DNA of 64,000 bases from Elusimicrobiota bacterium (GCA_018816525.1 JAHIVV010000054.1:9047-73046); one strand, 5' to 3'; counted from the stretch's first letter, positions 1,417 through 31,035 are shown. The notes: generated from the sequence alone by a model not told the origin. Made by a program: numbers and translations.

Positions 1417-2745
1417 ATGACAAAATTAAAAGAAAATTTAATTAGAGAAGAAATTTTAAAAAAGGTTAAAGAGTATCATTTTTCGAAAATACCCCAAAAG
1501 TTTATTCCGGGTGAAACTTTAGTAAATTATGCCGGTAGAATTTATGACGAAAATGAATTAATGAATCTTGTAAGCTCTTCATTGGATTTTTGGTTGACTG
1601 CAGGGGAATATGCCCAGAAATTCGAAAATAAGTTAGCCGAATTCTTGGGTGTAAAATACTGCCTTTTGAATAATTCCGGTTCTTCAGCGAATCTGCTCGC
1701 TATTTCCGCGCTAACTTCACCCAAACTTAAAGAAAAAAGATTAGTTCCGGGTGACGAAGTAATAACAACTGCCTGCGGTTTTCCTACTACGTTGAACCCT
1801 ATAATCCAAAATAATTTGATCCCTGTATTAATAGATGTTGATTTAGGAACCTACAATATTAAAACAGAAAATATCGAAAAAGCAATCACAAAAAAAACAA
1901 AAGCAATATTTATTCCTCATACATTGGGAAACCCCTTCAATATTGATAAAGTCCAACAGATCGCAGAAAAACATAATTTATGGCTTGTTGAAGACAATTG
2001 TGATGCGTTAGGTTCCAAATATAAAGGAAAGCATACCGGCACGTTCGGCCATTTATCAACTTGCAGTTTTTATCCTGCACACCATATAACCATGGGAGAA
2101 GGGGGCGCTGTTTTAACCAATGATCCTTTATTAAAAAAAATAGTTCTTTCTTTAAGAGATTGGGGCAGGGATTGCTGGTGTGAACCAGGCCATGATGACA
2201 GCTGCGGCAAAAGGTTCAATCAAAAGTTCGGTAAACTCCCTTTTGGTTACGACCACAAATATGTATATTCACACATTGGTTATAATTTAAAACTCACTGA
2301 TATGCAGGCCGCTATAGGTCTGGCGCAATTAGACAAACTTCCAGCATTTATCAAAAAGAGAAAGAAAAATTTCAGTACTCTTTTCGAGCATCTAAAAAAA
2401 CATGATAAGTTTTTACTTTTGCCTGAAAAAACAGAATACTCAGATCCCAGCTGGTTTGGCTTCCCGATTCTGGTAAAGCAAAATGCTCCTTTTAAAAGAA
2501 ACGATATCGTAAGCTTTTTAGAAAACAATAAAATAGCTACCCGTATGCTTTTTGGCGGGAATCTTATTAAACAGCCGGCTTATCAGGATATTAAATATAG
2601 GATTTTTGACAATCTGAATAACACGGATAATGTCATGGACAATTTATTCTGGATAGGCGTATATCCCGGTATAACAAATGAAAAATTAAAATATATCTTT
2701 AAAATAACGAATAGCTTTTTTAATGGTCTCAAAACTTTAAAATGA
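1417..2745 (+). CDS. ddhC: CDP-4-dehydro-6-deoxy-D-glucose 3-dehydrase (E1, PMP-dependent, with a [2Fe-2S] cluster)
   Basis: DegT/DnrJ fold, with the active-site Lys replaced by His (SFYPAHHITMGEGG). The exact E1 Fe-S motif C-X57-C-X1-C-X7-C is present (DNC...DCWCEPGHDDSC). Length is 442 aa, matching RfbH/DdhC. Confidence 0.85.
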   Translation: MTKLKENLIREEILKKVKEYHFSKIPQKFIPGETLVNYAGRIYDENELMNLVSSSLDFWLTAGEYAQKFENKLAEFLGVKYCLLNNSGSSANLLAISALTSPKLKEKRLVPGDEVITTACGFPTTLNPIIQNNLIPVLIDVDLGTYNIKTENIEKAITKKTKAIFIPHTLGNPFNIDKVQQIAEKHNLWLVEDNCDALGSKYKGKHTGTFGHLSTCSFYPAHHITMGEGGAVLTNDPLLKKIVLSLRDWGRDCWCEPGHDDSCGKRFNQKFGKLPFGYDHKYVYSHIGYNLKLTDMQAAIGLAQLDKLPAFIKKRKKNFSTLFEHLKKHDKFLLLPEKTEYSDPSWFGFPILVKQNAPFKRNDIVSFLENNKIATRMLFGGNLIKQPAYQDIKYRIFDNLNNTDNVMDNLFWIGVYPGITNEKLKYIFKITNSFFNGLKTLK

Positions 2746-8786: not shown

Positions 8787-10151
8787 ATGAAACTATTATT
8801 TATTAACGCAATAAACACAAAAAAGTATATTGAAACTGTTTATCCGCCTTTAGGCCTGGCTTATTTGTCATCCTATTTAAAAAAGCATTTCCAGGCTATT
8901 CAAATTAAAATTATTGACAGCAAAATCGAAGAAACATTAAAAGAGTTTCGACCAAATTATGTAGGTGTTTCATCAGTTTCTCAAAATTTCAATAGAGCTA
9001 TTTTTGTAGCCGATTTGTGTAAAAAGTTGAATATTCCTGTATTTGTCGGAGGAGTTCATATAACGATGCTTCCTGAAAGCTTACCCAAAATATTTGATTT
9101 CGGGGTAGTAGGAGAAGCAGAACAAACAATGGTAGAAGTTGTTGATTACTTGTCTAAAGGCGGCAAATCTGGCTCAATGGAGATGAAATCTATCAATGGC
9201 CTGGTTTTACATGACAATGAAGGTATTTTATTAACAAACAAAAGGCCTCTTTTGGAAAATCTTGACTTACTGCCCTTTCCAGACAGAGATTTGCTGAATA
9301 TACACATTGGCGAAACTACTTATCTATTTTCCTCGCGTGGCTGCCCGTATAAATGTACATTTTGCGCATCAACGCGTTTCTGGAATAAAACCCGCTGGTT
9401 CTCTTCAAATTATGTTTTAGCTGAATTAGAATTGATAATAAATAAATACAAACCAAAAGTTATTACTTTTTATGACGATCTTGCTGTAGCAAATTTAAGT
9501 AGATTTCAAGAGATTGTGAAAGGCATCAAATCTAAAGGAATTGACAAAAAGGTTAAATTTAACTTCTCTTGCAGAGCCAATCTTGTAAACGAAAATTTAA
9601 TAGCAACTCTAAAACAACTTGATATTGAAAGAATATGTTTTGGCCTTGAGTCTGGGTCACAAAAAACGCTGGATTTTCTCAAACCTAAAATGACAATTGA
9701 GAAAAACCGGCTGGCCCTGGATATGTTTCATAAGGCAAAAATTCCTATTCAAGCCACATTTATCATAGGTTCACCGGACGAAAGTGAAAAAGATATCCTT
9801 GAAACCTATTCATTTATAAAAAAAAGTAAATTAATAGACTTTGAGACCTATATATTAACTCCATTTCCCGGAACGCCAGTATGGGATATAGCTTTAAATA
9901 AAGGAATAGTTTCAAACGGCATGAATTGGGAAGATCTTGCCGTAGAAGTAGAAGATAACCCGGAAAATAAAATATTATTATCTAATTTGCCAAAAAACAA
10001 AATAATGGAGCTTTACAACCTGATAAAAAGAGAAAAAATTAGACGCAGGCATAAATACCTGATATTAAGGATAATAACAAATCCATTGTGGATTATAAAG
10101 AAAATTTATGAAAGATACAAAAATTACAAACATAGAAATTCTGTACGATAG
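8787..10151 (+). CDS. B12-binding radical SAM protein (class B radical-SAM, likely methyltransferase-type)
   Basis: N-terminal B12-binding Rossmann region (LLFINAINTKK...YVGVSSVS) followed by CxxxCxxC (SRGCPYKCTFCAS). 454 aa. Confidence 0.8.
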   Translation: MKLLFINAINTKKYIETVYPPLGLAYLSSYLKKHFQAIQIKIIDSKIEETLKEFRPNYVGVSSVSQNFNRAIFVADLCKKLNIPVFVGGVHITMLPESLPKIFDFGVVGEAEQTMVEVVDYLSKGGKSGSMEMKSINGLVLHDNEGILLTNKRPLLENLDLLPFPDRDLLNIHIGETTYLFSSRGCPYKCTFCASTRFWNKTRWFSSNYVLAELELIINKYKPKVITFYDDLAVANLSRFQEIVKGIKSKGIDKKVKFNFSCRANLVNENLIATLKQLDIERICFGLESGSQKTLDFLKPKMTIEKNRLALDMFHKAKIPIQATFIIGSPDESEKDILETYSFIKKSKLIDFETYILTPFPGTPVWDIALNKGIVSNGMNWEDLAVEVEDNPENKILLSNLPKNKIMELYNLIKREKIRRRHKYLILRIITNPLWIIKKIYERYKNYKHRNSVR

Positions 10152-10781: not shown

Positions 10782-11822
10782 ATGAAAATATTAATATATG
10801 GCGAAGGGTATTTCTTTGCAATAGCTCCTCAACTAAAAAAATCCTTTGAACAGTTGAATTGTGAAACAGATATATTCAATTGGACTTCTTATCTTTATAC
10901 AGAACGAGGGGTTAATCTAAAAAATCGTGTCCTCAATAGAATAATGATGCCGCTTATTGCTTCCAGGATAAATAGGGATTTAGTAAATTGCGTAAAAAAC
11001 AGCACATACGATTTTGTTTTGGTGAATAACGGATGGCATCTTACGTCCAAAACCATTGATGCCATAAAAAAACATACTAAGCATGTTATAAATTGGAGCA
11101 CTGATGAATTTTTCAATAATGCGTTTTCTTCCTTTATACACACTGAAACAATTACAAAATATGATTGTGTCTTGACTCAGAGGAAACACCTATTCAACCT
11201 TTATCGCAGCAAGGGGATAAAAAAATTGGAATATTTACCTTTATTTTACTATCCTGAACATCACCCTATCGTTACATCTGAAAATGAAAAAATCATATGG
11301 GGGAGCGGTATCGCTTTTATCGGCTCCTGGAGCAAAAAGAGAGAAAGAATGATTAACTTTTTGGAAGGTCTTGATGTTAAAATATGGGGAGGCCGTTGGA
11401 ATAAAAGCAGTAAGGAATTCAAAAAAAAGTTTAAAGTAAAAAACAAAATAGCATGGTTAGAAGACATGTCCAGAGTAGTAAATTCCACCAAAATAATTAT
11501 AGATACTTTAACCACAGAACAAAACGATGAAATTAATATGAAAAATTACCAAGTGCCAGCTTGCGGAGGATTTCTAATTACAAATAGGACAAATATGCTA
11601 TTAGAATTATTTGAGGAAGGTAAAGAAATTGTCTGTTATGATTCATACAAGGAATTGAAGGAAAAATGTGAATACTATTTGCTTCACGAAGAAGAGAGAA
11701 TTAAAATAGCAGCTAACGCTCACAAAAAGGTTATTGGCGGGCAAAATACGATACTAGACATAGCAAAAAAAATATTGGATATCGTCAATACATTACCTGG
11801 AAAGGAGGTAAGACACGAATGA
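10782..11822 (+). CDS. CgeB-family glycosyltransferase
   Basis: IAFIGSWSKKRERMINFLEG...YQVPACGGFLITNRTNMLLELFEEGKEIVCYDSYKELKEKCEYYLLHEEERIKIAANAHKKV is a canonical CgeB C-terminal pattern. Confidence 0.65.
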   Translation: MKILIYGEGYFFAIAPQLKKSFEQLNCETDIFNWTSYLYTERGVNLKNRVLNRIMMPLIASRINRDLVNCVKNSTYDFVLVNNGWHLTSKTIDAIKKHTKHVINWSTDEFFNNAFSSFIHTETITKYDCVLTQRKHLFNLYRSKGIKKLEYLPLFYYPEHHPIVTSENEKIIWGSGIAFIGSWSKKRERMINFLEGLDVKIWGGRWNKSSKEFKKKFKVKNKIAWLEDMSRVVNSTKIIIDTLTTEQNDEINMKNYQVPACGGFLITNRTNMLLELFEEGKEIVCYDSYKELKEKCEYYLLHEEERIKIAANAHKKVIGGQNTILDIAKKILDIVNTLPGKEVRHE

Positions 11823-12760
11823 AATCTAAACTATTTTTTGTTACAGGCGGATTAGGGTTTATCGGCAAACATTTTGTGCAACGCTGCCTGGATATGAGCC
11901 ATTTTGTAACTAATGTGGACATAATTAATTATGCGGCCGACCGTGTCGCAAATGAGGGGTTCAAAAAACACAGTAATTACCGGCACATTCAGGAAGATAT
12001 TGCTAATCTCAGCCATCTGCCTGAAAGTGATTTCCTGGTCAATTTTGCGGCCGAGTCGCATGTCGACAACTCTATTGCAAACAATCGCCAGTTCTGCCAT
12101 TCGAACATACTTGGTGTTCAGCGGCTTCTCGAGCTTACACGCGCCAAATCCGCATCAGGTGCGCCGCATTTCATCCAGATAAGTACCGATGAAGTTTATG
12201 GCGACATTGTAAACGGCAGGCATACCGAGTCGGATCCACTACGGCCGTCGAACCCTTACTCGGCTACCAAAGCCGCCGCTGATATGCTTGTCATTGGATG
12301 GTCCCGGACCTACTCGCTTCGCTATAACATCGTCCGTATGACCAACAATTATGGGCCAAACCAATACCCGGAGAAACTTATTCCCAAATCGGCATGGCGG
12401 ATGCGGCGTGGCTTGCCGGCAATGATGCATGGCGATGGCAGTTATATACGTTCTTGGCTCCACGTTGAAGATTCGATTGACGCCATTCTCACTATCTTTG
12501 AGAAAGGAGAACCTAATACTGTTTACAACGTGCATGGCAACTGTGAATTGCCGAACATCGAAGTTTTGCGGAAGATCGCAGCCATTTTTAAAGTTCCGGA
12601 AAAGGACGCCTACATCCAAATACCTAACCGGGTTGGCCAAGATGTTCGATACAGTCTTGACGACACGCGTCTACGTGCGCTCGGCTGGAAACCGGTACGG
12701 GATTTTGACGAGGAAATCAAAAAGATTGTCGAGGAAGACGAGTTCAAAAGATTTCTATAA
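11819..12760 (+). CDS. NDP-hexose 4,6-dehydratase (RmlB-like, short form)
   Basis: FFVTGGLGFIGKHF Rossmann; ISTDEVYGD and YSATKAA (YxxxK). First gene of a GC-richer block. Confidence 0.7.
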   Translation: MKSKLFFVTGGLGFIGKHFVQRCLDMSHFVTNVDIINYAADRVANEGFKKHSNYRHIQEDIANLSHLPESDFLVNFAAESHVDNSIANNRQFCHSNILGVQRLLELTRAKSASGAPHFIQISTDEVYGDIVNGRHTESDPLRPSNPYSATKAAADMLVIGWSRTYSLRYNIVRMTNNYGPNQYPEKLIPKSAWRMRRGLPAMMHGDGSYIRSWLHVEDSIDAILTIFEKGEPNTVYNVHGNCELPNIEVLRKIAAIFKVPEKDAYIQIPNRVGQDVRYSLDDTRLRALGWKPVRDFDEEIKKIVEEDEFKRFL

Positions 12761-12784
12761 TAACCTAAACGGGAGGTAACTTAT

Positions 12785-13210
12785 ATGAGTAAGAATGATG
12801 TTTCAGCTTGTCCAACAGGTCCCATAGTTTCAATGATTGCGCCCTTTGAAGATGGCCGGGGTTATATCCAGACGTTAGTAGACGGAGGAATACAGGCTAT
12901 CCAGGTCATCACCTCCAAAGCGAACACTGTCCGGGCTAACCACTACCATAAAGCAGATTCACACTTTATGTATGTAATAAAAGGCACAATGAAATATTTC
13001 CATCGCCCGGCAGGAGATAAGTCGGCCCCAAGTTGGTTATTGGTGAAGGCAGGCCAGATGGTCTTCACTCCGCCTTTAGTGGAACACGCAGTTGAATTCA
13101 CTGAAGACTCGGAATTTCTCAACATCACCGGAAAACCGCGGGACCAGGGTTCGTACGAAGATGACATAGTGCGAGTCGAACTCCATAAACTTTCGGTAAA
13201 AGGGGGCTGA
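12785..13210 (+). CDS. Cupin-fold NDP-4-keto-6-deoxyhexose isomerase/epimerase (FdtA/QdtA-like 3,4-ketoisomerase or RmlC-like)
   Basis: 141 aa small cupin (ANHYHKADSHFMYVIKGTMKYF), strong SD GGGAGG, positioned between a dehydratase and a C-methyltransferase. Confidence 0.5.
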   Translation: MSKNDVSACPTGPIVSMIAPFEDGRGYIQTLVDGGIQAIQVITSKANTVRANHYHKADSHFMYVIKGTMKYFHRPAGDKSAPSWLLVKAGQMVFTPPLVEHAVEFTEDSEFLNITGKPRDQGSYEDDIVRVELHKLSVKGG

Positions 13211-13214
13211 TTCA

Positions 13215-14459
13215 ATGACGCTCCATCATCATAAACGAACAAATTGCAGGCTATGCGGTTCGAAGGAACTTGAAAGTGTGTTGCACCTCAAACCTACGCC
13301 TCCGGCTAACTCGTTTGTATCAGCGGCGGAGAAAGACAAACCGCAGGAATTATATCCTTTAGACGTTTACCGCTGTGCCGACTGCGGCCACCTGCAACTG
13401 CTTGATATTGTTGACCCGAAAGTAATGTTCAGCCACTACGTGTACGTATCAAGTACCTCTCCGGTAATGGTCGGCTATCTCAGAGATCAATGCGCCGCTA
13501 TTGTGCGCCGGCTGAATCTCAAACAGGGAGATCTAGTGGTTGAGTTCGGCTCTAACGACGGTGCGTTACTGCGTTTCTTTAAAGAAGCCGGAATGCGGGT
13601 TTTAGGCGTGGACCCGGCAGGAAATGTTGCCCCGGATTCAGCTGAGATTGAAAATATTATCGATTTTTTCGGCGCCAAAGTGGGTAAACAAATTCGAGAA
13701 AAATATGGCCCGGCAAAGGCAATATGCGCATACAATGTTTGTGCTCACATCGATGACCTTCGCGGAGTTATAGATGGTGTCCGTTCGCTGCTAGCGCCTG
13801 ATGGCCAGTTTGTGTTTGAAGTTGGCTACCTGTTGGATGTTTATCGCAAGACTCTATTTGACACTATATATCACGAACACGTTGATTTTCACCACGTCGA
13901 ACCGTTGAAACGATTTTTTGCCGACAATGGGCTCAAATTACTGCATGCCGAGCGCTCCGATATTCAGGGAGGCGCGCTGGTAGGTTATGTAGGCAGTTCT
14001 ACACAACATGAAGATAACACAGTTGCCGAACTTATCACTGAGGAACATAAAGCGGGACTGCACCTTGCCGATACTTTTCACCGTTGGAGTGATATGATTA
14101 ACATCCGAGGCGAAGAACTAATGTTATTGCTGCGAGGGTTGAAAGCAAAAGGCAGGTCAATTGCTGCCTATGGTGCGACGGCTAAAGCAACAACAATGAT
14201 GTATAACTTCGGGATAGATGTCTCCATCCTTGACTATATTGTCGATGACAATCCGCTCAAGCAGGGAATGTTCACTCCCGGATTACATATACCGGTATAC
14301 TCTGCAAATGTTCTCTATCAAAAAAAACCGGATTATGTTCTTTTGCTCGCGTGGAACTTTGCTGAACCGATAGTAAAAAAACACAGGCTTTATGCCGGAA
14401 ACAAGAGCCGTTTCATCCTGCCGCTTCCTAACCTGACTATAATCGGGGGTGAGTCTTAA
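13215..14459 (+). CDS. NDP-sugar C-methyltransferase (TylC3/NovU-type; SAM-dependent with an N-terminal Zn-binding domain)
   Basis: N-terminal CRLCGS...CADCGH zinc motif. Central VVEFGSNDGALL SAM motif. C-terminal C-methyltransferase-type domain. 414 aa. Confidence 0.65.
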   Translation: MTLHHHKRTNCRLCGSKELESVLHLKPTPPANSFVSAAEKDKPQELYPLDVYRCADCGHLQLLDIVDPKVMFSHYVYVSSTSPVMVGYLRDQCAAIVRRLNLKQGDLVVEFGSNDGALLRFFKEAGMRVLGVDPAGNVAPDSAEIENIIDFFGAKVGKQIREKYGPAKAICAYNVCAHIDDLRGVIDGVRSLLAPDGQFVFEVGYLLDVYRKTLFDTIYHEHVDFHHVEPLKRFFADNGLKLLHAERSDIQGGALVGYVGSSTQHEDNTVAELITEEHKAGLHLADTFHRWSDMINIRGEELMLLLRGLKAKGRSIAAYGATAKATTMMYNFGIDVSILDYIVDDNPLKQGMFTPGLHIPVYSANVLYQKKPDYVLLLAWNFAEPIVKKHRLYAGNKSRFILPLPNLTIIGGES

Positions 14460-15412
14460 TGCAAATTGGGCTGATAGGGGCCGGGCGCTGGGGTAAACGA
14501 TACATCGAGACCCTTAATCGCATGCCCGATATCAATCTTGCCTATTTAGCGAGCAGAAACCCTGAGAGCGTTTCGCTTGTCCCTTCAACCTGCAAGGTAA
14601 CTCCGGACTGGCGTAATCTTTTAGAAAATACCGGCCTTGATGGCATCATTATAGCTACACCGCCGGAAACTCACCTTGAAATAGCGATAGAGTCAATCCA
14701 TGCCGGCATACCGGTTTTAATTGAAAAACCCATGACGATTTCTCTGCCGGCTGCTCAAAATCTAGTTAAAGAAGCGGCTGATTGCGGAATTTTAATAATG
14801 GTTGGGCATACTCACCTGTTCAGTGCTGCGTTTCGTGGACTAAAAATGAAGGGCCAGTCTCTTGGTAAATTGAAAAATATGCATTCATCAGGAGGCGCTT
14901 GGGGACCCTTTCGCCCTGACACTCCGCCGCTGTGGGATTGGGCACCCCATGATATATCAATGTCCATAGAGCTTTCCGGAAGTTTTCCATCGCACATTAG
15001 TGCTAAACGAACCGGATTTATTCAACAACCGCAGGGAACAGGGGAGTCCTTCAGAATCATACTGGATTTCGAATCTGGTGCTTGTTCTGAAATCAATATC
15101 AGTAACATCCAACAAAATAAGCAACGGCTGTTTAAAGCCACATACGAAGGCGGTTCCCTGATTTATGATGACCTTGCGGAAAATAAACTTGTCTTTCAAT
15201 TTTCTTCTAAATCAGCCGTAGAACCTGTTGCGATTGATCACTCTCTGCCGCTTACTAACCTTGTGGCTGATTTCTGCCGCGCTATCGGAGAAGGCCGACG
15301 ATATGATCAGAGTTTGCATCTAGGCCTGCAGGTAGTGGAAGTGTTAACCGAATGTCAAAAGTCCCTTAATGTTACCGAGAGTTACTATAATGCAAAATCA
15401 AATAGAGCCTAA
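14459..15412 (+). CDS. Gfo/Idh/MocA-family NAD(P)-dependent oxidoreductase (probable sugar ketoreductase)
   Basis: N-terminal MQIGLIGAGRWGKRYIETL Rossmann and EKP motif (LIEKPMT). Last gene of the GC-rich block. Confidence 0.7.
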   Translation: MQIGLIGAGRWGKRYIETLNRMPDINLAYLASRNPESVSLVPSTCKVTPDWRNLLENTGLDGIIIATPPETHLEIAIESIHAGIPVLIEKPMTISLPAAQNLVKEAADCGILIMVGHTHLFSAAFRGLKMKGQSLGKLKNMHSSGGAWGPFRPDTPPLWDWAPHDISMSIELSGSFPSHISAKRTGFIQQPQGTGESFRIILDFESGACSEINISNIQQNKQRLFKATYEGGSLIYDDLAENKLVFQFSSKSAVEPVAIDHSLPLTNLVADFCRAIGEGRRYDQSLHLGLQVVEVLTECQKSLNVTESYYNAKSNRA

Positions 15413-16307
15413 AGTTTGTGTAATAATTCCCAATAAAAATGGGGCCAAACATCTTTATTACTCACTCGATTCTTTGGCAAAAACAAATTATAAAAATTAC
15501 AACGTAATATTAGTAGACGACGGTTCTGCAGATGAATCTTTAATCTATGTTAAAGATAAATTTCCAGAAATTAAGATATTAGAAAATATTGGCAAAAAGG
15601 GTTTTGCCGGAGCTGTAAATACCGGTATAAAATACGCCTTAAGTCAAAATGCTCATTATGTAGCTGTTTTTAATACTGATATTAAAATATTGCCTGAATG
15701 GATAAATCTTGTTGTCGATTTATTTGATAAGTTAAGTACGGTTGGGTTGATCGGATATACAGCAATTCCTAAAGAAGAAGAAATTAGTTTTGTAAACTGG
15801 AAAAATATTGACTTTAAATATGAAGAAATAAAGGATTCAAAAGGCGTAGAAGGCTGTTTATACTTATGTCCGTCAGCTGTATTCAGGCATATTGGTTTTT
15901 TTGACGAAGATTATTTTATGTATGGTGAAGATAATGATTTATTTCATAGACTTTTAAAAGCAAATTATAAAATCATAAAAACCAATATTCCTGTATGGCA
16001 CTACGGCGAAGGCTCATCGATAAACAAAGGTTTTTTTGCTACGTGGCTCGCTTATAGAAACGCATTAAGATTTTCAATAAAGAATGAAAATATCATTGGT
16101 GTGTTTTTTAAGGTTCTCTCTCTATTAAATCAGGGATGTAACCCCTTCAGAAAAAGGAAGAAACATAATTCTGTTTACAAAAGAATGAGAAGATATAATC
16201 CAATATTAAACTTCTTGATTATCATTGGAAGCATCTTGTGGAATATTTACCATTTACCAATAACTATCAAACAACGAAATATATTTAATTCGAACTGTAA
16301 GGAGTAA
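15369..16307 (+). CDS. Glycosyltransferase family 2
   Basis: VCVIIPNKNGAKHL...VILVDDGSADES...DEDYFMYGEDND (DxD). An alternative ATG at 15390 (MQNQ...) would give a shorter overlap with the upstream gene. Confidence 0.7.
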   Translation: MLPRVTIMQNQIEPKVCVIIPNKNGAKHLYYSLDSLAKTNYKNYNVILVDDGSADESLIYVKDKFPEIKILENIGKKGFAGAVNTGIKYALSQNAHYVAVFNTDIKILPEWINLVVDLFDKLSTVGLIGYTAIPKEEEISFVNWKNIDFKYEEIKDSKGVEGCLYLCPSAVFRHIGFFDEDYFMYGEDNDLFHRLLKANYKIIKTNIPVWHYGEGSSINKGFFATWLAYRNALRFSIKNENIIGVFFKVLSLLNQGCNPFRKRKKHNSVYKRMRRYNPILNFLIIIGSILWNIYHLPITIKQRNIFNSNCKE

Positions 16308-16311
16308 TAGC

Positions 16312-17367
16312 ATGGCTCAAATATTTTATTTGATAAAAAGAGTTACACGCCTAATTATTAAGCCTTTTAAGGAAAAGATACAAGTAAAATCACTGATAAA
16401 AGAGTTCGTTCTTTTAGTGAAACAATTTCTCCATTATAACATTTCAAGCCTTCCCCGCAGTATTCATATGGAGTTAACAAGTAAATGTAACCTAGCCTGT
16501 AAAGCGTGTTACAGGACCGGCGTTTTGAAAGAATATATGAATTTAAACACAACTATGACGCTATCCGACCTTAAAAAGTTAATTGGAAAGTACGACCCAA
16601 AAAAAGTTAAATCCATTGTTTTGTCGGGAGGTGAAAACCTTCTTCACCCTGACTTTTTCGAAGCTTTGGATATATTGAGAGACAAATTTACAAAAAGCCT
16701 TCTTTTACTTGCAACTAATGGTGTTATTCTTTCGAATGATAAAAACAAATTGGAAAAAGTATGCAAATCTTCGATAAATTCTATCCAGGTTTCGCTTCAT
16801 GGAGCAACACAGGAAACTATTGATTTATTGCAAAAAGGTATTAATTTACAAAAAGTTCTGGAAATAATTGAATTTATAACAAAAAATTCTAAAATAAATG
16901 TGTCTGTTAACTACGTAATTCAGGAAGAAAATGTAAACGAAATTTCAAAATTTCTTGATATAGTTTCGGAATTTAACGTCAAAGATGTTTCATTACATCC
17001 AATGAATTATGCCGGTCATAGAGAAGATGCAGTAAATTACATCGATTTATGGGAAAAAATGAATTTAGAAAAAATATTATCTAATGCCTATAAGAAAGCA
17101 AAATTTCTTGGTATAAATATTTGGCCCTTTAGCACTATGTGTACAAGTGTTTTTGATGTTGATGTTTTAACAGCCAGCGGCGATGTATTACCTTGCTGGG
17201 GACAGTATCTCGTTAAAAAATACAAAATTGGCAATGTTTTTCAGCAAAAGCCTGACGAAATACGTAAAAGTAAAGAAATTAAGGAATTAAAAAAATCGAT
17301 TCTTTCGGGACGCAGCAATAACGAAATGTGCAATTCCTGCTGGGCTAATGGCAAAAAATATATATGA
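16312..17367 (+). CDS. Radical SAM / SPASM-domain protein
   Basis: CNLACKACYRTG (CxxxCxxC) near the N-terminus; GGENLLHPDF; a C-terminal Cys-rich auxiliary-cluster region (LPCWGQY...CNSCWANG). Confidence 0.75.
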   Translation: MAQIFYLIKRVTRLIIKPFKEKIQVKSLIKEFVLLVKQFLHYNISSLPRSIHMELTSKCNLACKACYRTGVLKEYMNLNTTMTLSDLKKLIGKYDPKKVKSIVLSGGENLLHPDFFEALDILRDKFTKSLLLLATNGVILSNDKNKLEKVCKSSINSIQVSLHGATQETIDLLQKGINLQKVLEIIEFITKNSKINVSVNYVIQEENVNEISKFLDIVSEFNVKDVSLHPMNYAGHREDAVNYIDLWEKMNLEKILSNAYKKAKFLGINIWPFSTMCTSVFDVDVLTASGDVLPCWGQYLVKKYKIGNVFQQKPDEIRKSKEIKELKKSILSGRSNNEMCNSCWANGKKYI

Positions 17368-19742: not shown

Positions 19743-20624
19743 ATGAAAATCCTAATACTTGGCGGAAGCGGAATGCTGGGCCACAGAACATACCTTAAAT
19801 TCAAAGGTAAATTTGACACTTATGCAGCCTTTAGAAATTTTTCACATTACAAAAGATATAGTATTTTCGAAGAGAAAAATGTTATTGACAACTTCTCAAC
19901 CGAAAATATCGAACATATAAAAGGAACTTTATCAAAAATACACCCAAACTGCATTATTAACTGTATCGGCATAACCAAGCAGCAAAAAATTGCTGATGAC
20001 CCGGTTCAGATGATTACAACGAATTCCTTATTTCCGCATATTTTAAGTTCAATATGTGAAGAAGCTGACATAAAATTAATACATATCAGCACCGACTGTG
20101 TTTTTTCCGGAGAAAAAGGGAATTATAAGGAAGATGATTTTTCGGATGCTGTTGATTTGTACGGAAGAACTAAATTTCTTGGCGAAGTAAGAAACATGAA
20201 CAATACATTAACCATAAGAACATCTATAATCGGGAGGGAACTGAAAACCTCTCTGGGCCTGGTTGAATGGTTCTTAAACCAAAAAGAGAATATGATAAAA
20301 GGCTTCAAAAATGCTGTTTTTTCGGGTTTTACCACAGACGCATTATCAGATATCTTTATTGACATTATCCAAAACCATAGTAAAATAAGCGGATTATATA
20401 ACGTTTCTGCCGAACCGATAAATAAGTTTGACCTTTTGAATATTATAAAAAATTCATTCAATGTAAAAACCGAAATTGCTGCATTTGATGATTTTTATTG
20501 CGACCGAAGCCTTGATTCTACAAAATTCAGAGCAAATACCGGTTTCAAGCCTCTTCTCTGGCAAACAATGATTGATAAACTTGCAATCGATACCAATCAA
20601 TATAACATCTGGAGGAACTTATGA
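19743..20624 (+). CDS. RmlD-like NAD(P)H sugar-nucleotide 4-reductase (WbvR-like)
   Basis: MKILILGGSGMLGHR Rossmann. 293 aa, the RmlD_sub_bind size. Immediately precedes the FnlA-like dehydratase. Confidence 0.6.
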   Translation: MKILILGGSGMLGHRTYLKFKGKFDTYAAFRNFSHYKRYSIFEEKNVIDNFSTENIEHIKGTLSKIHPNCIINCIGITKQQKIADDPVQMITTNSLFPHILSSICEEADIKLIHISTDCVFSGEKGNYKEDDFSDAVDLYGRTKFLGEVRNMNNTLTIRTSIIGRELKTSLGLVEWFLNQKENMIKGFKNAVFSGFTTDALSDIFIDIIQNHSKISGLYNVSAEPINKFDLLNIIKNSFNVKTEIAAFDDFYCDRSLDSTKFRANTGFKPLLWQTMIDKLAIDTNQYNIWRNL

Positions 20625-21688
20625 TTTTCGAAGGAAAAAGAATTCTTATTACCGGGGGCACAGGTTCACTGGGTAAAACTCTTGTCCGAAGACTGCTATC
20701 AGGCAAGGATGGCAAACCAAAAAAAATAATCGTGTTTTCACGGGATGAAGCAAAACAGCACCAGATGCGTGTTGATTATAAACATAAAAAATTCGCTACT
20801 GATGAATTGATCTATCATAATTTTGAGGAATTACTTGAGTTTTGGATCGGCGACGTAAAAGATTATCACAGCGTCCTTTCAGCTTTAAGGGATGTTGATA
20901 TAGTTTTCAATGCAGCAGCCTTAAAACAGGTTCCAACCTGCGAATATTTTCCGTTCGAGGCCGTAATGACAAACATCGAAGGCCCCCAAAACATTGTCCG
21001 GGCCATAAAAGAAAATAATCTGCCGATAGAAACCGTAGTAGGCGTTTCTACCGATAAAGCCTGCAAACCTGTGAATGTCATGGGTATGACAAAAGCAATC
21101 CAGGAAAAAATATTTATAAATGCAAATTTGCAGTCTAAAAAAACAAGGTTTATTTGTGTCAGGTATGGGAATGTACTGGCTTCGAGAGGTTCTGTAATCC
21201 CTTTATTTCACGAACAAATTCTAGCCGGGCAGGATATAACCATTACTACAGAAGATATGACAAGATTTTTGCTGCCGCTTGATTATGCCGTAGATATAAT
21301 CTTTGCCGCCGTGAAGAAAGCAAATCCCGGAGAAACCTTTATCCCGCGCGTTCTTTCAGCAAATATGATGGATATTGCAAAAGCTCTTATAGGAAAAAGA
21401 AAAAATAAGATAAAAATAATTGGGATTAGGCCGGGAGAAAAAATCCACGAAATACTGGTTTCCGACGAAGAGGCTTACAGGACTACAACCAGGGGCGAAT
21501 ATTACGTAATACTCCCCATGTTACCCGAATTACAAAATAAAAACGCAGGCAAAACAACCTTCCTGACAAAGGAGTATAGTTCAGGAGACAACGTAATGTC
21601 AACGGATGAAACTTATGAATTATTGAAAAAATTTAAATTACTCTTGGAAAATGACATACTTACGCAAGAAGAGGAATTCCTAAGATGA
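20621..21688 (+). CDS. UDP-N-acetylglucosamine 4,6-dehydratase (FnlA/CapE/WbvB-type, CapD-like)
   Basis: MIFEGKRILITGGTGSLGKTLVRRLL. 355 aa. Short-form CapD/PseB/FnlA family signature. Confidence 0.75.
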   Translation: MIFEGKRILITGGTGSLGKTLVRRLLSGKDGKPKKIIVFSRDEAKQHQMRVDYKHKKFATDELIYHNFEELLEFWIGDVKDYHSVLSALRDVDIVFNAAALKQVPTCEYFPFEAVMTNIEGPQNIVRAIKENNLPIETVVGVSTDKACKPVNVMGMTKAIQEKIFINANLQSKKTRFICVRYGNVLASRGSVIPLFHEQILAGQDITITTEDMTRFLLPLDYAVDIIFAAVKKANPGETFIPRVLSANMMDIAKALIGKRKNKIKIIGIRPGEKIHEILVSDEEAYRTTTRGEYYVILPMLPELQNKNAGKTTFLTKEYSSGDNVMSTDETYELLKKFKLLLENDILTQEEEFLR

Positions 21689-22770
21689 AAATAATAACAA
21701 TACTTGGTACGAGGCCGGAAATAATACGTTTAAGCTTAATAATTGGAAAATTAGATAAAAATTCAAACCATGTATTAGTTCATACAGGCCAAAATTTCAC
21801 TGAATCCCTTAATACGATTTTCTTTGACCAGTTAAAAGTAAGAAAACCGGATTATTTTTTAAATGCAAGGGGAGCAACCATAGGAGAACAAATCAGCCAG
21901 ATTATAGAAAGGACTGAAAAGGTGTTAGTTAAGGAAAAACCGGATGCATTGCTTATCTTGGGAGATACAAATAGCGGCCTTTCCTGCATCCCGGCCAAAA
22001 GGCTGCATATACCGGTTTATCATATGGAGGCAGGCAATAGGTGTTATAATGATAAAGTCCCTGAAGAAATCAACAGAAGAATTATCGACCATTCCAGTGA
22101 TTTTCTCATGCCCTATACACAACGAAGCAAAGAAAACCTTGTGAGAGAAGGTATTGATAGAAATAAAATATTTGTAACCGGCAACCCTATTAATGAGGTA
22201 ATTCTACGCTTTAAAAAACAGATTGACACAAACACTATACTAAATAAGTTAAAAATTAAGAAAGACAAGTATTTCTTGATAACAATGCACAGAGCTGAAA
22301 ATGTCGACAATAATACCAATTTAAAGAGCTTGGTAAACGCATTAGAAAAACTGCATTCTATTTATGGGTATCCTATTATTTGCAGTTTGCATCCCAGAAC
22401 CGCTGACAAAATGAAAAAGTTCAATATTTCGATAACAAACAAAGATATCCGTTTTTTAACGCCTATGGGTTTTTTTGAATTTATCAAGCTTGAGCAAAAT
22501 GCTTTCTGCGTATTAAGCGATAGCGGGACTGTTCAGGAAGAATGTTCTATTTTGATGGTTCCAAATGTAACCATGCGTGATGTTACGGAAAGGCCAGAAA
22601 CCCTGGAATGCGGAAGCAATATACTTTCCGGACTCACCGTAGCTGATATAATTCAATCTGTTAAATTAGTAGCAAATTTAAAATCCAAATGGTCTGCACC
22701 GGAAGAATATAAGGAAAAAAACGTTTCGGATAAAGTGTTAAGGATTATTTTCAGCCGGTTCGATTTCTAA
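21685..22770 (+). CDS. UDP-N-acetylglucosamine 2-epimerase (non-hydrolysing; WecB/FnlC/Cap5G-type)
   Basis: MKIITILGTRPEIIRLS, the canonical WecB N-terminus. Internal HMEAGNR. 361 aa. Confidence 0.8.
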   Translation: MKIITILGTRPEIIRLSLIIGKLDKNSNHVLVHTGQNFTESLNTIFFDQLKVRKPDYFLNARGATIGEQISQIIERTEKVLVKEKPDALLILGDTNSGLSCIPAKRLHIPVYHMEAGNRCYNDKVPEEINRRIIDHSSDFLMPYTQRSKENLVREGIDRNKIFVTGNPINEVILRFKKQIDTNTILNKLKIKKDKYFLITMHRAENVDNNTNLKSLVNALEKLHSIYGYPIICSLHPRTADKMKKFNISITNKDIRFLTPMGFFEFIKLEQNAFCVLSDSGTVQEECSILMVPNVTMRDVTERPETLECGSNILSGLTVADIIQSVKLVANLKSKWSAPEEYKEKNVSDKVLRIIFSRFDF

Positions 22771-29979: not shown

Positions 29980-31035
29980 ATGAAAGCTCTCATTTTACTC
30001 GGGGGGATTGGTACCCGGCTAAGGCCATTTACCTGCACAACCCCAAAACCTTTGTTACCTATTTTAAACCAGCCGTTTATAACTTATCAGCTTAACTTAA
30101 TCAAAGAGTTTGGCATAAAAGAAGTAACTTTCTGCCTTAGCTACAGAGCCGAACAATTTAGTAAATTTGTAGGCACCGGAAAAAATTTCGGCCTTAAAGT
30201 GAATTATGTTTACGAAGAAAAACCTTTAGGCACAGGCGGCGCAATAAAAAATGCACAAAAGTTTATTGACCAAACCACGATTATTCTTAATGGAGACATT
30301 CTTACAGACATAAATCTGAAAGAGATGGCCAAATTTCATAACCAGAAAAATGCTATTCTTACTATAGGTCTTGTAAGGGTGAAGGACCCCACCATTTATG
30401 GACTGGTTGAAACAGACAAACAATCAAGAATAGAAAAATTTCTTGAAAAACCTTCCTGGGACGAGGTTACATGTAATACCATAAACAGCGGAATATATAT
30501 TTTTGAGCCTGAATTGCTTGATTACATACCTGTAAATATAAATTATTCTGTTGAAAGAGGATTATTTCCGCACCTTCTTGAAGAACAAAAACCTGTATTT
30601 GGATTCGTTTCTTCGCCATATTGGCTTGATATTGGCACGGTAGAAAAATATGTCCAGGCGCATTTCGACATACTTAAAGGAGAAGTAAAGATACCTGTGC
30701 CGGGCAAGCAGATCAAAAAATCTGTTTGGGCTGACAAAAATGTATCTATAAACGCGAAGTCAGTTATTGAAGGCAAGGTAATAATCGGGCACAACAGCAG
30801 AATTGACGAATTTGTCCAGCTTTCAGGGCTTGTTTCTATAGGAAAAAACTGCAAAATTAAAAAGGGAGCCCAGATTAGTGATTCAGTAATTTTAGACAAT
30901 ACAATAATCGGAGAAGGCACAAAGATTGAAAAATCCATAGTCGGCAGAAATTGTAACGTAGAACCTAATTCGATATTGACTCCAGGCTGTGCAATCGGAG
31001 ACAATTCATTGATAACAAGGTTTTCGAACTTGTAA
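29980..31035 (+). CDS. Sugar-1-phosphate nucleotidyltransferase with a C-terminal left-handed beta-helix (probable mannose-1-phosphate guanylyltransferase)
   Basis: MKALILLGGIGTRLRPFTCTTPKPLLPI, the NTP_transferase G-rich loop. C-terminal hexapeptide repeats. Followed by a PMI-cupin and phosphomannomutase. Confidence 0.7.
   Translation: MKALILLGGIGTRLRPFTCTTPKPLLPILNQPFITYQLNLIKEFGIKEVTFCLSYRAEQFSKFVGTGKNFGLKVNYVYEEKPLGTGGAIKNAQKFIDQTTIILNGDILTDINLKEMAKFHNQKNAILTIGLVRVKDPTIYGLVETDKQSRIEKFLEKPSWDEVTCNTINSGIYIFEPELLDYIPVNINYSVERGLFPHLLEEQKPVFGFVSSPYWLDIGTVEKYVQAHFDILKGEVKIPVPGKQIKKSVWADKNVSINAKSVIEGKVIIGHNSRIDEFVQLSGLVSIGKNCKIKKGAQISDSVILDNTIIGEGTKIEKSIVGRNCNVEPNSILTPGCAIGDNSLITRFSNL

What the first reader, a model, noticed from the sequence alone, without database searches (positions are those of the whole stretch)
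11819..15412. GC-rich, strong-SD four-gene cassette for a C-methylated (branched-chain) deoxysugar embedded in the AT-rich glycan operon
The window is otherwise about 30-35% GC. Between roughly 11.8 and 15.4 kb the composition jumps to about 45-50% GC. Codon usage changes (GGC, CGC and CTG become frequent). Every gene in the block gets a strong SD (GGGAGG, AAGGGGG, GGGGGTGAG), unlike its neighbours. The four genes are an RmlB-like 4,6-dehydratase, a small cupin (FdtA/RmlC-like ketoisomerase/epimerase), a TylC3/NovU-type sugar C-methyltransferase with a Cys4 zinc motif, and a Gfo/Idh/MocA reductase. This is the gene logic of antibiotic-type branched deoxysugars such as mycarose, virenose or evalose, which are rare in O-antigens or S-layer glycans. 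It looks like a laterally acquired functional module recombined into a resident locus without any integrase or transposase.
Basis: partly seen in the sequence, partly recalled or inferred. Interest (0 to 1): 0.65.

Follow-up and report, generated by a model that had tools for sequence, protein, structure and literature searches.

The report
Foreign C-methyl deoxysugar cassette in glycan locus
Four adjacent GC-rich genes in an AT-rich surface-sugar locus of an uncultured Elusimicrobia bacterium very probably make a methyl-branched 6-deoxy sugar, and they belong to a widely shared but uncharacterised gene cassette that travels between bacterial phyla together with its flanking glycosyltransferases.

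Summary
Genes 11819-15412 have 46-47% GC (GC3 0.41-0.51). Their neighbours have 30-33% and the rest of the window averages 36%. Arg and Leu codon use switches, and each of the four genes has a strong SD.

The gene calls are right except for one detail. They are an RmlB-like 4,6-dehydratase, a 141-aa cupin, a TylC3/TcaB9/MtmC-family C-methyltransferase with a Cys4 zinc domain, and a Gfo/Idh/MocA oxidoreductase. The cupin is not detectably FdtA/RmlC-like. It is a four-His metallocupin whose closest fold is the Zn-dependent epimerase domain of CapF.

The same gene order occurs in at least 30 loci: Elusimicrobia, Omnitrophota, Betaproteobacteria and a Mycobacterium isolate. In most hosts the cassette has the host's GC. 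The window's clade is nested among versions from GC-richer hosts, and its third-position changes run GC to AT. That supports a foreign origin with ongoing amelioration.

The unit shared with the closest relative (L001) is not the four genes. It is a 5.5-kb module, GT1_2 + cassette + GT2 (10782 to about 16000), with uniform divergence across the GC steps. The GC mosaic therefore predates this genome.

Most likely product: an NDP-6-deoxy-3-C-methylhexose. Regio- and stereochemistry are inferred only. This is a new variant of a known kind, of moderate interest.

The parts
10782..11822 (+). GT1_2-family glycosyltransferase (PF13524). It is AT-rich (GC 0.33) but co-inherited with the cassette, and it forms the left edge of the shared module.
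   Evidence: Pfam. 80% aa and 83% DNA identity to L001, with similarity starting exactly at 10782. dS 0.76, like the cassette genes. Same relative branch lengths as the cassette.
11819..12760 (+). NDP-glucose 4,6-dehydratase (RmlB-like extended SDR, 313 aa). SD AAGGAGG at 11802-11808. Its start overlaps the GT stop (ATGA).
   Evidence: PF16363 4e-53 and PF01370. TIGR01181 scores 301 bits, below the 365 cutoff. Best PDB match is 2hun, dTDP-glucose 4,6-dehydratase, 1e-73. STDEVYG and YSATK motifs are read directly from the translation. GC 0.472.
12785..13210 (+). Stand-alone 141-aa metallocupin, predicted to be an NDP-4-ketohexose epimerase (CapF-cupin-like). SD GGGAGG at 12771-12776.
   Evidence: Cupin_2 at 28.4 bits and PF14667 at E 1.6e-4. 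AF2 model pLDDT 88. The top five Foldseek hits are CapF entries, best rmsd 1.9 A. H53, H55, H60 and H101 are invariant and align to the OxdC Mn ligands. A natural fusion to the C-MT exists in P0368.
13215..14459 (+). SAM-dependent NDP-hexose C-methyltransferase (TylC3/TcaB9/MtmC family, 414 aa) with Cys4 zinc site C11, C14, C54, C57. SD AAGGGGG at 13200-13206.
   Evidence: PF08421 + PF13489 + PF08484. PDB 4rv9 (MtmC) 1e-84 and TcaB9 6e-62 over the full length. Y219, E221, H222 and H178 align with the TcaB9 active-site motif.
14459..15412 (+). Gfo/Idh/MocA NAD(P) oxidoreductase (317 aa), the predicted terminal ketoreductase. SD GGGGGTGAG at 14445-14453.
   Evidence: PF01408 3e-20. Best PDB match is 3c1a, 'putative oxidoreductase', 5e-55. 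NCBIfam UDP-GlcNAc 3-dehydrogenase scores 96 bits against a cutoff of 450. EKP motif is read from the translation.
15390..16307 (+). GT2-family glycosyltransferase. The ORF opens at 15369 and the likely start is ATG 15390. It is AT-rich, and the right edge of the shared module lies inside it, at about 15.7-16.0 kb.
   Evidence: PF00535. 68% aa identity to L001. DNA identity to L001 falls 0.80, 0.74, 0.68 across the gene. The junction was independently assembled in L105-L107.

Best explanation
A four-gene operon segment converts an NDP-glucose, probably dTDP-glucose drawn from the cell's pool, into an NDP-activated methyl-branched 6-deoxyhexose for a surface glycan.

Proposed steps:
1. The RmlB-like enzyme makes NDP-4-keto-6-deoxyglucose. 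The family assignment is shown; the substrate nucleotide is inferred.
2. The TylC3/MtmC-family enzyme uses SAM to methylate the carbon next to the 4-keto group, most likely C-3. The family and aligned catalytic residues are shown; the position is inferred.
3. The metal-dependent cupin epimerises an acidic centre of the ketosugar, probably C-5 after methylation or C-3 before it. This is inferred from the CapF-like fold, the four-His site, strict adjacency to the C-MT and a natural fusion with it.
4. The Gfo/Idh/MocA enzyme reduces the remaining keto group. This step is inferred.

One of the two co-inherited glycosyltransferases (GT1_2 upstream, GT2 downstream) then probably transfers the sugar.

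Evolution. The cassette comes from a GC-richer gene pool and is being ameliorated. It reached this lineage as part of a roughly 5.5-kb GT + cassette + GT module that was already compositionally mosaic. The route was probably homologous recombination inside a conserved glycan locus, not a mobile element.
For: Family assignments.

The order deh-cupin-CMT-Gfo is conserved in at least 30 loci across phyla. The cupin sits immediately upstream of the C-MT in a second, distant cassette type as well, and the two are fused in P0368. The CapF cupin is a Zn-dependent epimerase of an NDP-4-keto-6-deoxy sugar (PMC5393024), and it is the top fold match.

Foreign origin:
- GC and GC3 are outliers.
- The Omnitrophota homologue L004 encodes 64-84% identical proteins at GC3 0.31, so the proteins do not require high GC.
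- In the NJ tree the window's clade is nested among versions from hosts of 52-65% GC.
- Third-position changes specific to the window lineage are 72-78 GC->AT against 11-28 AT->GC.

Module unit.

Not an assembly artefact. The right junction is present at 99.97% identity in three other deposited assemblies, which may not rest on independent reads. The same mosaic occurs in L001, L002 and L003 from three different samples.
Against: - No enzyme of this clade has been assayed.
- The dehydratase scores below the TIGR01181 equivalog cutoff, and no nucleotidyltransferase is part of the cassette, so the NDP is unknown.
- The nearest characterised relatives of the Gfo protein act at C-3 of sugars, not C-4.
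- C-3 epimerisation before C-3 methylation would be chemically redundant, so the cupin's exact step is uncertain.
- MtmC, the best PDB match of the C-MT, is itself a bifunctional ketoreductase-methyltransferase (from memory), which could make the Gfo role different.
- The parsimony test of amelioration used GC-richer outgroups, which biases the inferred ancestral states towards GC.
Confidence: 0.6

Rival explanations
1. 3-keto logic. The cupin is a 3,4-ketoisomerase. The C-MT methylates C-2 or C-4 next to a 3-keto group. The Gfo/Idh/MocA enzyme is a 3-ketoreductase. The product would be a 2-C- or 4-C-methyl 6-deoxyhexose.
For: The closest characterised Gfo relatives are C-3 enzymes: NCBIfam UDP-GlcNAc 3-dehydrogenase with full-length alignment at 96 bits, and PDB 7bvj, annotated 'Oxidoreductase, NAD-binding', at 3e-11 and the sugar 3-ketoreductase 3rc1 at 7e-5 (their enzyme identities are from memory). 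QdtA, a 3,4-ketoisomerase, appears among the fold hits at rank 39. In the type-B operons the Gfo gene precedes cupin-CMT.
Against: From memory, all characterised TylC3/TcaB9/NovU-family enzymes act on 4-keto sugars. FdtA Pfam gives E = 0.14 and WxcM-like gives E = 0.5 with the family profile. The QdtA superposition has rmsd 8.7 A, against 1.9-2.4 A for CapF. FdtA/QdtA are metal-independent, whereas this family has four invariant His at the metal positions.
Confidence: 0.2
2. Noviose-type logic. The cupin is a 3-epimerase, the C-MT methylates C-5 as NovU does, and the reductase finishes the pathway. The product would be a 5-C-methyl (gem-dimethyl) 6-deoxyhexose.
For: The four-enzyme inventory (dehydratase, cupin epimerase, C-MT, reductase) is, from memory, exactly that of NovT/NovW/NovU/NovS. 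CapF's cupin is an epimerase of an NDP-4-keto-6-deoxy sugar, and it is the best fold match. A C-3 epimerase makes chemical sense only if methylation is not at C-3.
Against: The best solved homologue is the 3-C-methyltransferase MtmC at 1e-84, followed by the 3-C enzymes TcaB9 and KijD1. No NovU sequence was available here for comparison.
Confidence: 0.12
3. The GC-rich block is not foreign. It reflects an assembly chimera, or gene-specific constraint or expression-linked codon bias.
For: The window comes from a metagenome-assembled genome. Three other assemblies of the same organism all break at window 13631, inside the C-MT. In every locus of the extended clade the cassette is GC-richer than its GT neighbours, as is generally seen for sugar-pathway genes against GT genes in O-antigen loci (background knowledge).
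Against: Reading frames run through both junctions with overlapping stop and start codons. Identity to L001 is flat across 13631 and across both GC steps. The same mosaic is seen in independent samples. The cassette exceeds even metK and the other housekeeping genes of the window, whose maximum is GC 0.44. L004 encodes similar proteins at GC3 0.31. There is a strong GC->AT substitution bias.
Confidence: 0.05

Closest known systems
L-mycarose / D-mycarose / tetronitrose / kijanose C-3 methylation step (TylC3, MtmC, TcaB9, KijD1) of actinomycete antibiotic deoxysugar pathways
   Same: Same three-domain C-methyltransferase: Cys4 zinc domain, class I SAM fold and PF08484 C-terminal domain. Full-length alignment, 1e-84 to MtmC, with aligned active-site Tyr/Glu/His residues. 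The substrate arises through an RmlB-type 4,6-dehydratase.
   Different: There is no 2,3-dehydratase and no aminotransferase, so the sugar keeps its 2-OH and 3-OH. The epimerase is a metallocupin rather than RmlC-like TylK/EryBVII. The reductase is Gfo/Idh/MocA rather than an SDR 4-ketoreductase. The context is a surface-glycan locus with Wzx/GT/rSAM genes, not a polyketide cluster.
Virenose (6-deoxy-3-C-methylgulose) pathway proposed for Coxiella burnetii LPS (CBU_0691 C-methyltransferase)
   Same: A TylC3-type C-MT in an LPS O-antigen region, predicted to methylate NDP-4-keto-6-deoxyhexose. The pathway is still only in silico, and its 4-ketoreductase is unassigned in the TDP route (PMC3539893; PMC13552124).
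   Different: The Coxiella proposal uses GDP-mannose, Gmd and a GMER-type SDR. No cupin or Gfo partner is described. Sequence relatedness to CBU_0691 could not be tested here.
CapF (Cap5F) of Staphylococcus aureus, C-terminal cupin domain
   Same: Best structural match: TM 0.69-0.71, rmsd 1.9-2.4 A over 118 columns. It is a metal-dependent cupin acting on an NDP-4-keto-6-deoxy sugar. Its Pfam family PF14667 is the second-best hit, and it passes the cutoff in type-B homologues.
   Different: Only 18-19% identity. The profile E-value to CapF is 0.055. The protein here is stand-alone rather than fused to an SDR reductase. It has four His ligands. Its partner enzyme is a C-methyltransferase.
Noviose pathway NovT/NovW/NovU/NovS (from memory)
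   Same: Identical enzyme inventory in kind: 4,6-dehydratase, cupin epimerase, TylC3-family C-MT and ketoreductase.
   Different: NovW is RmlC-like and NovS is an SDR. Methylation is at C-5. No sequence comparison was made.
Modular O-antigen locus evolution, for example rml gene blocks of enteric rfb clusters (background knowledge)
   Same: A sugar-pathway block of different GC from the surrounding GT genes, exchanged by recombination without mobile-element genes.
   Different: Here the block is GC-richer than the whole genome sample, not merely richer than the GT genes. It is shared across phyla.

Membership tests
TylC3/TcaB9-type NDP-hexose C-methyltransferase | N-terminal Cys4 zinc-binding domain (PF08421) | tested here: met
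   PF08421 78.6 bits, cutoff 31.3. C11, C14, C54 and C57 are read from the translation.
TylC3/TcaB9-type NDP-hexose C-methyltransferase | Class I SAM-MT core plus C-methyltransferase C-terminal domain (PF08484) | tested here: met
   PF13489 57.6 bits and PF08484 154 bits. Full-length alignment to 4rv9 and 3ndi.
TylC3/TcaB9-type NDP-hexose C-methyltransferase | Active-site Tyr / Glu-His / His residues (the residue roles are from memory of the TcaB9 work) | tested here: met
   Query Y219-H-E221-H222 aligns with TcaB9 Y-D-E-H. Query N174...H178 aligns with TcaB9 N...H.
TylC3/TcaB9-type NDP-hexose C-methyltransferase | Methyl transfer to C-3 (not C-5) of an NDP-4-ketohexose | not testable with these tools
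   Needs an assay with NMR, or a phylogeny that includes NovU-type enzymes.
dTDP-glucose 4,6-dehydratase (RmlB) | Extended SDR with a TDE and YxxxK catalytic set | tested here: met
   STDEVYG and YSATK. 2hun at 1e-73.
dTDP-glucose 4,6-dehydratase (RmlB) | Score above the TIGR01181 equivalog cutoff | tested here: not met
   301.2 bits against a cutoff of 365.1. Treat it as RmlB-like with the nucleotide unassigned.
   PF05523 gives E = 0.14 at 12.4 bits. There is no RmlC hit at E <= 1. WxcM-like 4zu4 gives E = 0.5 with the family profile.
CapF-type metallocupin NDP-ketosugar epimerase | Cupin fold closest to the CapF C-terminal domain | tested here: met
   Foldseek ranks 1-5 are CapF entries, E 4e-8 to 6e-7, rmsd 1.9-2.4 A.
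CapF-type metallocupin NDP-ketosugar epimerase | Pfam PF14667 above the gathering score | tested here: inconclusive
   22.2 bits against a cutoff of 28.7 for the window protein. 29.0 and 31.1 bits for the type-B homologues in L016 and L013.
CapF-type metallocupin NDP-ketosugar epimerase | Conserved metal ligands at the canonical cupin positions | tested here: met
   H53, H55, H60 and H101 are invariant in 42 sequences. They align with OxdC H95, H97, E101 and H140 (the ligand numbering is from memory).
Gfo/Idh/MocA oxidoreductase | N-terminal Rossmann domain PF01408 and an EKP motif | tested here: met
   73.6 bits against a cutoff of 24. VLIEKPMT is read from the translation.
Gfo/Idh/MocA oxidoreductase | Acts as an NDP-4-ketohexose reductase | not testable with these tools
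   No characterised close homologue. The best PDB match, 3c1a, is unannotated.
Integrase- or transposase-borne genomic island | Integrase or transposase gene, tRNA target, flanking direct repeats | tested here: not met
   Only chance AT-rich repeats were found. The nearest tRNA is at 42.9 kb. No such ORFs occur between 5 and 24 kb.

The most novel reading that the evidence does not exclude
Gfo/Idh/MocA + four-His metallocupin + TylC3-type C-methyltransferase may form a conserved, so far unrecognised three-enzyme unit for building methyl-branched sugars in cell-surface glycans across many phyla.

Two versions were seen. Type A has an RmlB-like dehydratase (this window, Betaproteobacteria, a Mycobacterium). 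Type B has a PIG-L deacetylase and occurs in many marine and freshwater bacteria, including SAR86.

Its chemistry could differ from the antibiotic paradigm. One possibility is a Gfo-run oxidise-alkylate-reduce cycle. Another is methylation next to a 3-keto group, which would give 2-C- or 4-C-methyl sugars not yet described in polysaccharides.
Probability: 0.2. Interest if true: 0.6.

Novelty: new variant of a known kind. Interest (0 to 1): 0.38.

Why it matters
C-methyl-branched sugars are textbook components of actinomycete antibiotics. In bacterial envelopes they are known from only a few cases, and the best known, virenose of Coxiella LPS, still lacks a biochemically proven pathway.

This cassette is an untested enzyme set: an RmlB-like dehydratase, a CapF-like metallocupin, a C-methyltransferase and a Gfo/Idh/MocA reductase. 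It is spread over at least four phyla, and 618 clusters of the cupin family were found at E <= 1e-10. It is also present in a cultivable Mycobacterium, where the product could be identified directly.

For genome evolution, it shows a pathway-plus-transferase module crossing phylum boundaries while carrying a persistent compositional mosaic. A GC step alone therefore misplaces the recombination breakpoints.

Tried and rejected
- Exact-sequence look-ups of the window's C-MT and cupin found no record. The Gfo protein did work.
- Literature searches for a characterised dehydratase/cupin/C-MT/Gfo pathway, for 6-deoxy-3-C-methyl sugars with gene clusters, and for 3-C-methyl sugars in glycopeptidolipids returned nothing relevant. 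Two queries failed on syntax.
- Flanking repeats and tRNA genes were looked for as integration signatures. None was found.
- I tested whether the cassette alone had been replaced more recently than its GT neighbours, using rate-normalised dN ratios. This was rejected: the ratios are 1.5-2.3 for GT1_2 and 1.2-3.1 for the cassette genes.
- I tested for a dedicated nucleotidyltransferase travelling with the cassette. None does; only 2 cassette loci have one nearby. The window's own NTP-transferase at 29980-31035 is below every NCBIfam cutoff.
- A chimeric join at 13631 was rejected, because identity to L001 and the GC content are continuous there.
- I did not compare with NovU or CBU_0691, because neither sequence could be obtained with the tools.

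Full report
OBSERVATION

The composition step is real and sharp. In 1-kb windows, GC is 0.475, 0.490 and 0.462 between 12 and 15 kb. It is 0.30-0.35 for the 11 kb on either side and 0.36-0.43 in the second half of the window. At 200-nt resolution the rise is at about 11.85-11.95 kb and the fall at about 15.35-15.40 kb.

The step coincides with four co-directional ORFs: 11819-12760, 12785-13210, 13215-14459 and 14459-15412. Their GC is 0.457-0.474 and their GC3 is 0.41-0.51. Their immediate neighbours have GC 0.30-0.33 and GC3 0.26-0.32.

I compared them with the 47 other ORFs of 150 aa or more in the window (GC mean 0.362, sd 0.036, max 0.440). The three long cassette genes are the three GC-richest, with z = 2.6-3.0.
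- Arg is 83% CGN in the cassette and 30% elsewhere.
- Leu CTG is 0.24 against 0.13, and TTA is 0.13 against 0.31.
- Gly GGC is 0.40 against 0.30.

Each of the four starts is preceded by a strong SD: AAGGAGG, GGGAGG, AAGGGGG and GGGGGTGAG. Most neighbouring genes have none, though a few do.

WHAT THE GENES ARE

Gene 1 is an extended SDR of the 4,6-dehydratase type.
- Pfam gives PF16363 at 4e-53. TIGR01181 (dTDP-glucose 4,6-dehydratase) scores 301 bits, below its cutoff of 365.
- The best solved structure is the Pyrococcus dTDP-glucose 4,6-dehydratase 2hun at 1e-73.
- The STDEVYG and YSATK motifs are present.

Gene 3 has all three domains of the sugar C-methyltransferases: PF08421 (zinc domain, with C11, C14, C54 and C57), PF13489 and PF08484. 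It aligns end to end with MtmC (4rv9, 1e-84), TcaB9 and KijD1. The Tyr-x-Glu-His and Asn...His positions of TcaB9 are conserved. This excludes an O- or N-methyltransferase.

Gene 4 is a Gfo/Idh/MocA oxidoreductase (PF01408, EKP motif).
- Its only close solved relative is an unannotated structural-genomics protein, 3c1a, at 5e-55.
- Its closest named relatives are sugar C-3 dehydrogenases and reductases, at far lower scores.

Gene 2 is a 141-aa cupin, but it is not an FdtA or RmlC relative by any test I could run. PF05523 gives E = 0.14, and there is no RmlC hit at E <= 1.
- An AlphaFold model built on 42 homologues has pLDDT 88.
- That domain is a Zn-dependent epimerase acting on the NDP-4-keto-6-deoxy sugar made by CapE (PMC5393024).
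- CapF's Pfam family, PF14667, is the second-best Pfam hit. It passes its cutoff in more distant homologues.
- H53, H55, H60 and H101 are invariant in the family. In a profile search they align with the Mn ligands of oxalate decarboxylase.

I therefore call it a four-His metallocupin and a probable NDP-ketosugar epimerase.

DISTRIBUTION

The window comes from an Elusimicrobia MAG. Exact matches are P0121 and P0241, named by NCBI, on a 75-kb contig.

The four genes occur in the same order in at least 30 other loci:
- another Elusimicrobia MAG (L012);
- an Omnitrophota MAG (L004);
- Burkholderiales, Gallionellaceae and other Betaproteobacteria (L005, L009-L011, L019, L024);
- many unbinned metagenome contigs;
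- the isolate Mycobacterium sp. IS-3022 (L007).

In the Mycobacterium the cassette sits next to an NRPS T-TE end, an MFS transporter, two EryCIII-like GT1 genes and an O-methyltransferase. This is a glycolipid-type locus.

None of these proteins carries a functional name in any source.

The cupin family has 618 clusters at 50% identity with E <= 1e-10. One member, P0368 (561 aa), is a natural cupin::C-methyltransferase fusion.

A second, distant cassette type was also found. It has the order Gfo - cupin - C-MT - PIG-L deacetylase, with its C-MT 45-50% identical to the window's. It is conserved in about 40 marine and freshwater loci, including a SAR86 genome. In L013 a PglF-like dehydratase lies downstream.

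The triad of Gfo, metallocupin and C-MT therefore recurs with two different ways of making the ketosugar. This is the main argument that the three enzymes work on one substrate.

ORIGIN OF THE GC ISLAND

In most hosts the cassette has the host's GC: 0.52-0.65 against flanks of 0.52-0.64.

Some loci also share the neighbouring B12-radical-SAM, GT1_2 and GT2 genes: the window, L001, L006, L012, L004, L026 and L028. In the AT-rich hosts of this clade the cassette stays at 0.45-0.52 (window 0.47 against 0.33, L001 0.50 against 0.30). In Omnitrophota it is 0.39 against 0.35.

Four observations support a foreign, GC-richer origin:
- L004 encodes 64-84% identical proteins at GC3 0.31, so high GC is not a protein constraint.
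- In a neighbour-joining tree of the concatenated proteins, this clade is nested among versions from hosts of 52-65% GC.
- With L012 plus L006 or L028 as outgroups, third-position changes unique to the window lineage are 72-78 GC->AT against 11-28 AT->GC. The L001 lineage shows 16-30 against 15-20.
- The cassette exceeds even the window's housekeeping genes in GC.

This fits a cassette from a GC-richer pool that is being ameliorated, and further along in the window than in L001. One caveat applies: GC-rich outgroups bias parsimony towards GC ancestral states.

THE UNIT OF TRANSFER IS NOT THE FOUR GENES

Three results show this.
- Against L001, DNA similarity starts exactly at 10782, the GT1_2 start codon, and ends near 16281. 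In 300-nt windows the identity is flat at 0.81-0.87 from 10782 to about 15700. It does not change at either GC step. It then decays to 0.68 inside GT2.
- dS is 0.76 for GT1_2, 0.49-0.71 for the four cassette genes and 1.32 for GT2. The genes outside this block are saturated: the rSAM, the other GT1_2, the FnlA-like gene and the 2-epimerase.
- dN to L006, L012, L028 and L004, divided by dN to L001, is 1.5-2.3 for GT1_2 and 1.2-3.1 for the cassette genes. They share one tree. The window's rSAM is equally distant from all of them, at x1.0-1.2.

A GT1_2 + cassette + GT2 module of about 5.5 kb has therefore been inherited or exchanged as a block. It already carried AT-rich transferases next to a GC-rich pathway.

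No integrase, tRNA or meaningful repeats mark the edges. The conserved neighbouring genes would allow homologous recombination, but that route is inferred.

ARTEFACT CHECK

Three other deposited assemblies contain window 13631 to at least 17286 at 99.97% identity. They cover the GC-to-AT right junction, though they may not rest on independent reads. All three break at 13631, inside the C-MT. However, GC and identity to L001 are continuous there.

The left junction has an ATGA stop/start overlap. The homologous mosaic is seen in three independent samples, L001-L003. A chimera is very unlikely.

MECHANISM

Shown: the family assignments, the conserved order, the cupin-C-MT coupling, and the absence of a 2,3-dehydratase, an aminotransferase or a nucleotidyltransferase in the cassette.

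Inferred pathway:
1. NDP-glucose is converted to NDP-4-keto-6-deoxyglucose.
2. SAM-dependent C-methylation occurs at the carbon alpha to the keto group. C-3 is most likely, by homology to MtmC, TcaB9 and KijD1.
3. A metal-assisted epimerisation follows. C-5 is the only acidic centre left after C-3 methylation.
4. The Gfo enzyme reduces the keto group, giving an NDP-6-deoxy-3-C-methylhexose.
5. One of the two co-inherited GTs transfers the sugar.

Rival chemistries are given in the rivals section: a 3-keto route to 2-C- or 4-C-methyl sugars, and noviose-type C-5 methylation. Sequence cannot decide between them.

COMPARISON AND NOVELTY

The kind of pathway is known, from the mycarose, tetronitrose and noviose routes and from the proposed virenose route. 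A C-MT in an LPS locus is also not new; Coxiella's CBU_0691 is an example.

What is new is the particular enzyme set. A CapF-like metallocupin replaces an RmlC-type epimerase, and a Gfo/Idh/MocA enzyme replaces an SDR reductase. Also new are its breadth across phyla and its linkage to two transferases in a mobile module.

The virenose pathway is still unproven and, in one route, lacks an assigned 4-ketoreductase. I could not test whether this cassette is related to it.

VERDICT

This is a real, non-chance feature. It is a new variant of a known kind. Interest is moderate at 0.38. It would be higher if the triad turns out to perform new chemistry.

Noticed in passing
window 1417-2745 (+), with 467-1405: This is an RfbH equivalog (NF011936, 726 bits against a cutoff of 423), a CDP-6-deoxy-hexulose 3-dehydrase. 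It follows an SDR gene at the very start of the window. A 3,6-dideoxyhexose branch seems to be encoded too, but its upstream genes are cut off by the window edge.
   Followed up: partly
window 19743-22770 (+): A trio of an RmlD-like reductase, a PseB/FnlA-like UDP-GlcNAc 4,6-dehydratase and a WecB-type 2-epimerase. This is the gene logic of 2-acetamido-2,6-dideoxy-L-hexoses. It is syntenic downstream of the module in L001 and L004, but with saturated dS.
   Followed up: partly
window 8787-10151 (+) and 16312-17367 (+): Two radical SAM genes bracket the module. One is a B12-binding class-B methylase-like enzyme, which is also conserved next to the cassette in L001, L004, L006, L012 and L028. 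The other is a SPASM-domain enzyme. Their role in glycan modification is unknown.
   Followed up: no
loci L013-L018, L022-L023, L056-L104: A second conserved operon, Gfo/Idh/MocA - cupin - C-methyltransferase - PIG-L deacetylase, occurs in about 40 marine and freshwater contigs. These include SAR86, Chitinophagaceae, Opitutus and Paracoccaceae MAGs. L013 has a PglF-like dehydratase downstream.
   Followed up: partly
protein P0368 (561 aa), no locus: A natural fusion of the cassette-type cupin (residues 6-131) with a full C-methyltransferase (PF08421, PF13489 and PF08484).
   Followed up: partly
window 13631; loci L105-L107: Three other assemblies of the same population (JGI 3300015370, ENA ERZ27247117, NCBI GCA_018830695.1) all begin at the same base inside the C-methyltransferase gene. 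This may reflect strain variation, or a related cassette in a co-occurring organism confusing the assembly graph. L029 comes from the same JGI metagenome.
   Followed up: partly
L007 1-17218 (Mycobacterium sp. IS-3022): The cassette is at native GC (0.62). It sits beside an NRPS carrier-thioesterase end, an MFS transporter, two EryCIII-like GT1 genes and an O-methyltransferase. It looks like a glycopeptidolipid-type locus in a cultivable organism.
   Followed up: partly
L001 13661-14410 (-): A DDE transposase (PF01609) lies just downstream of the module in the closest related locus. There is none in the window.
   Followed up: no
window 35512-40719 (+): A 1735-aa ORF with an N-terminal signal-like segment follows the metK/ahcY genes and is presumably a large surface protein. 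The whole glycan locus (0-30 kb, about 0.32 GC) is itself more AT-rich than the housekeeping half of the window, at 0.38-0.41.
   Followed up: no
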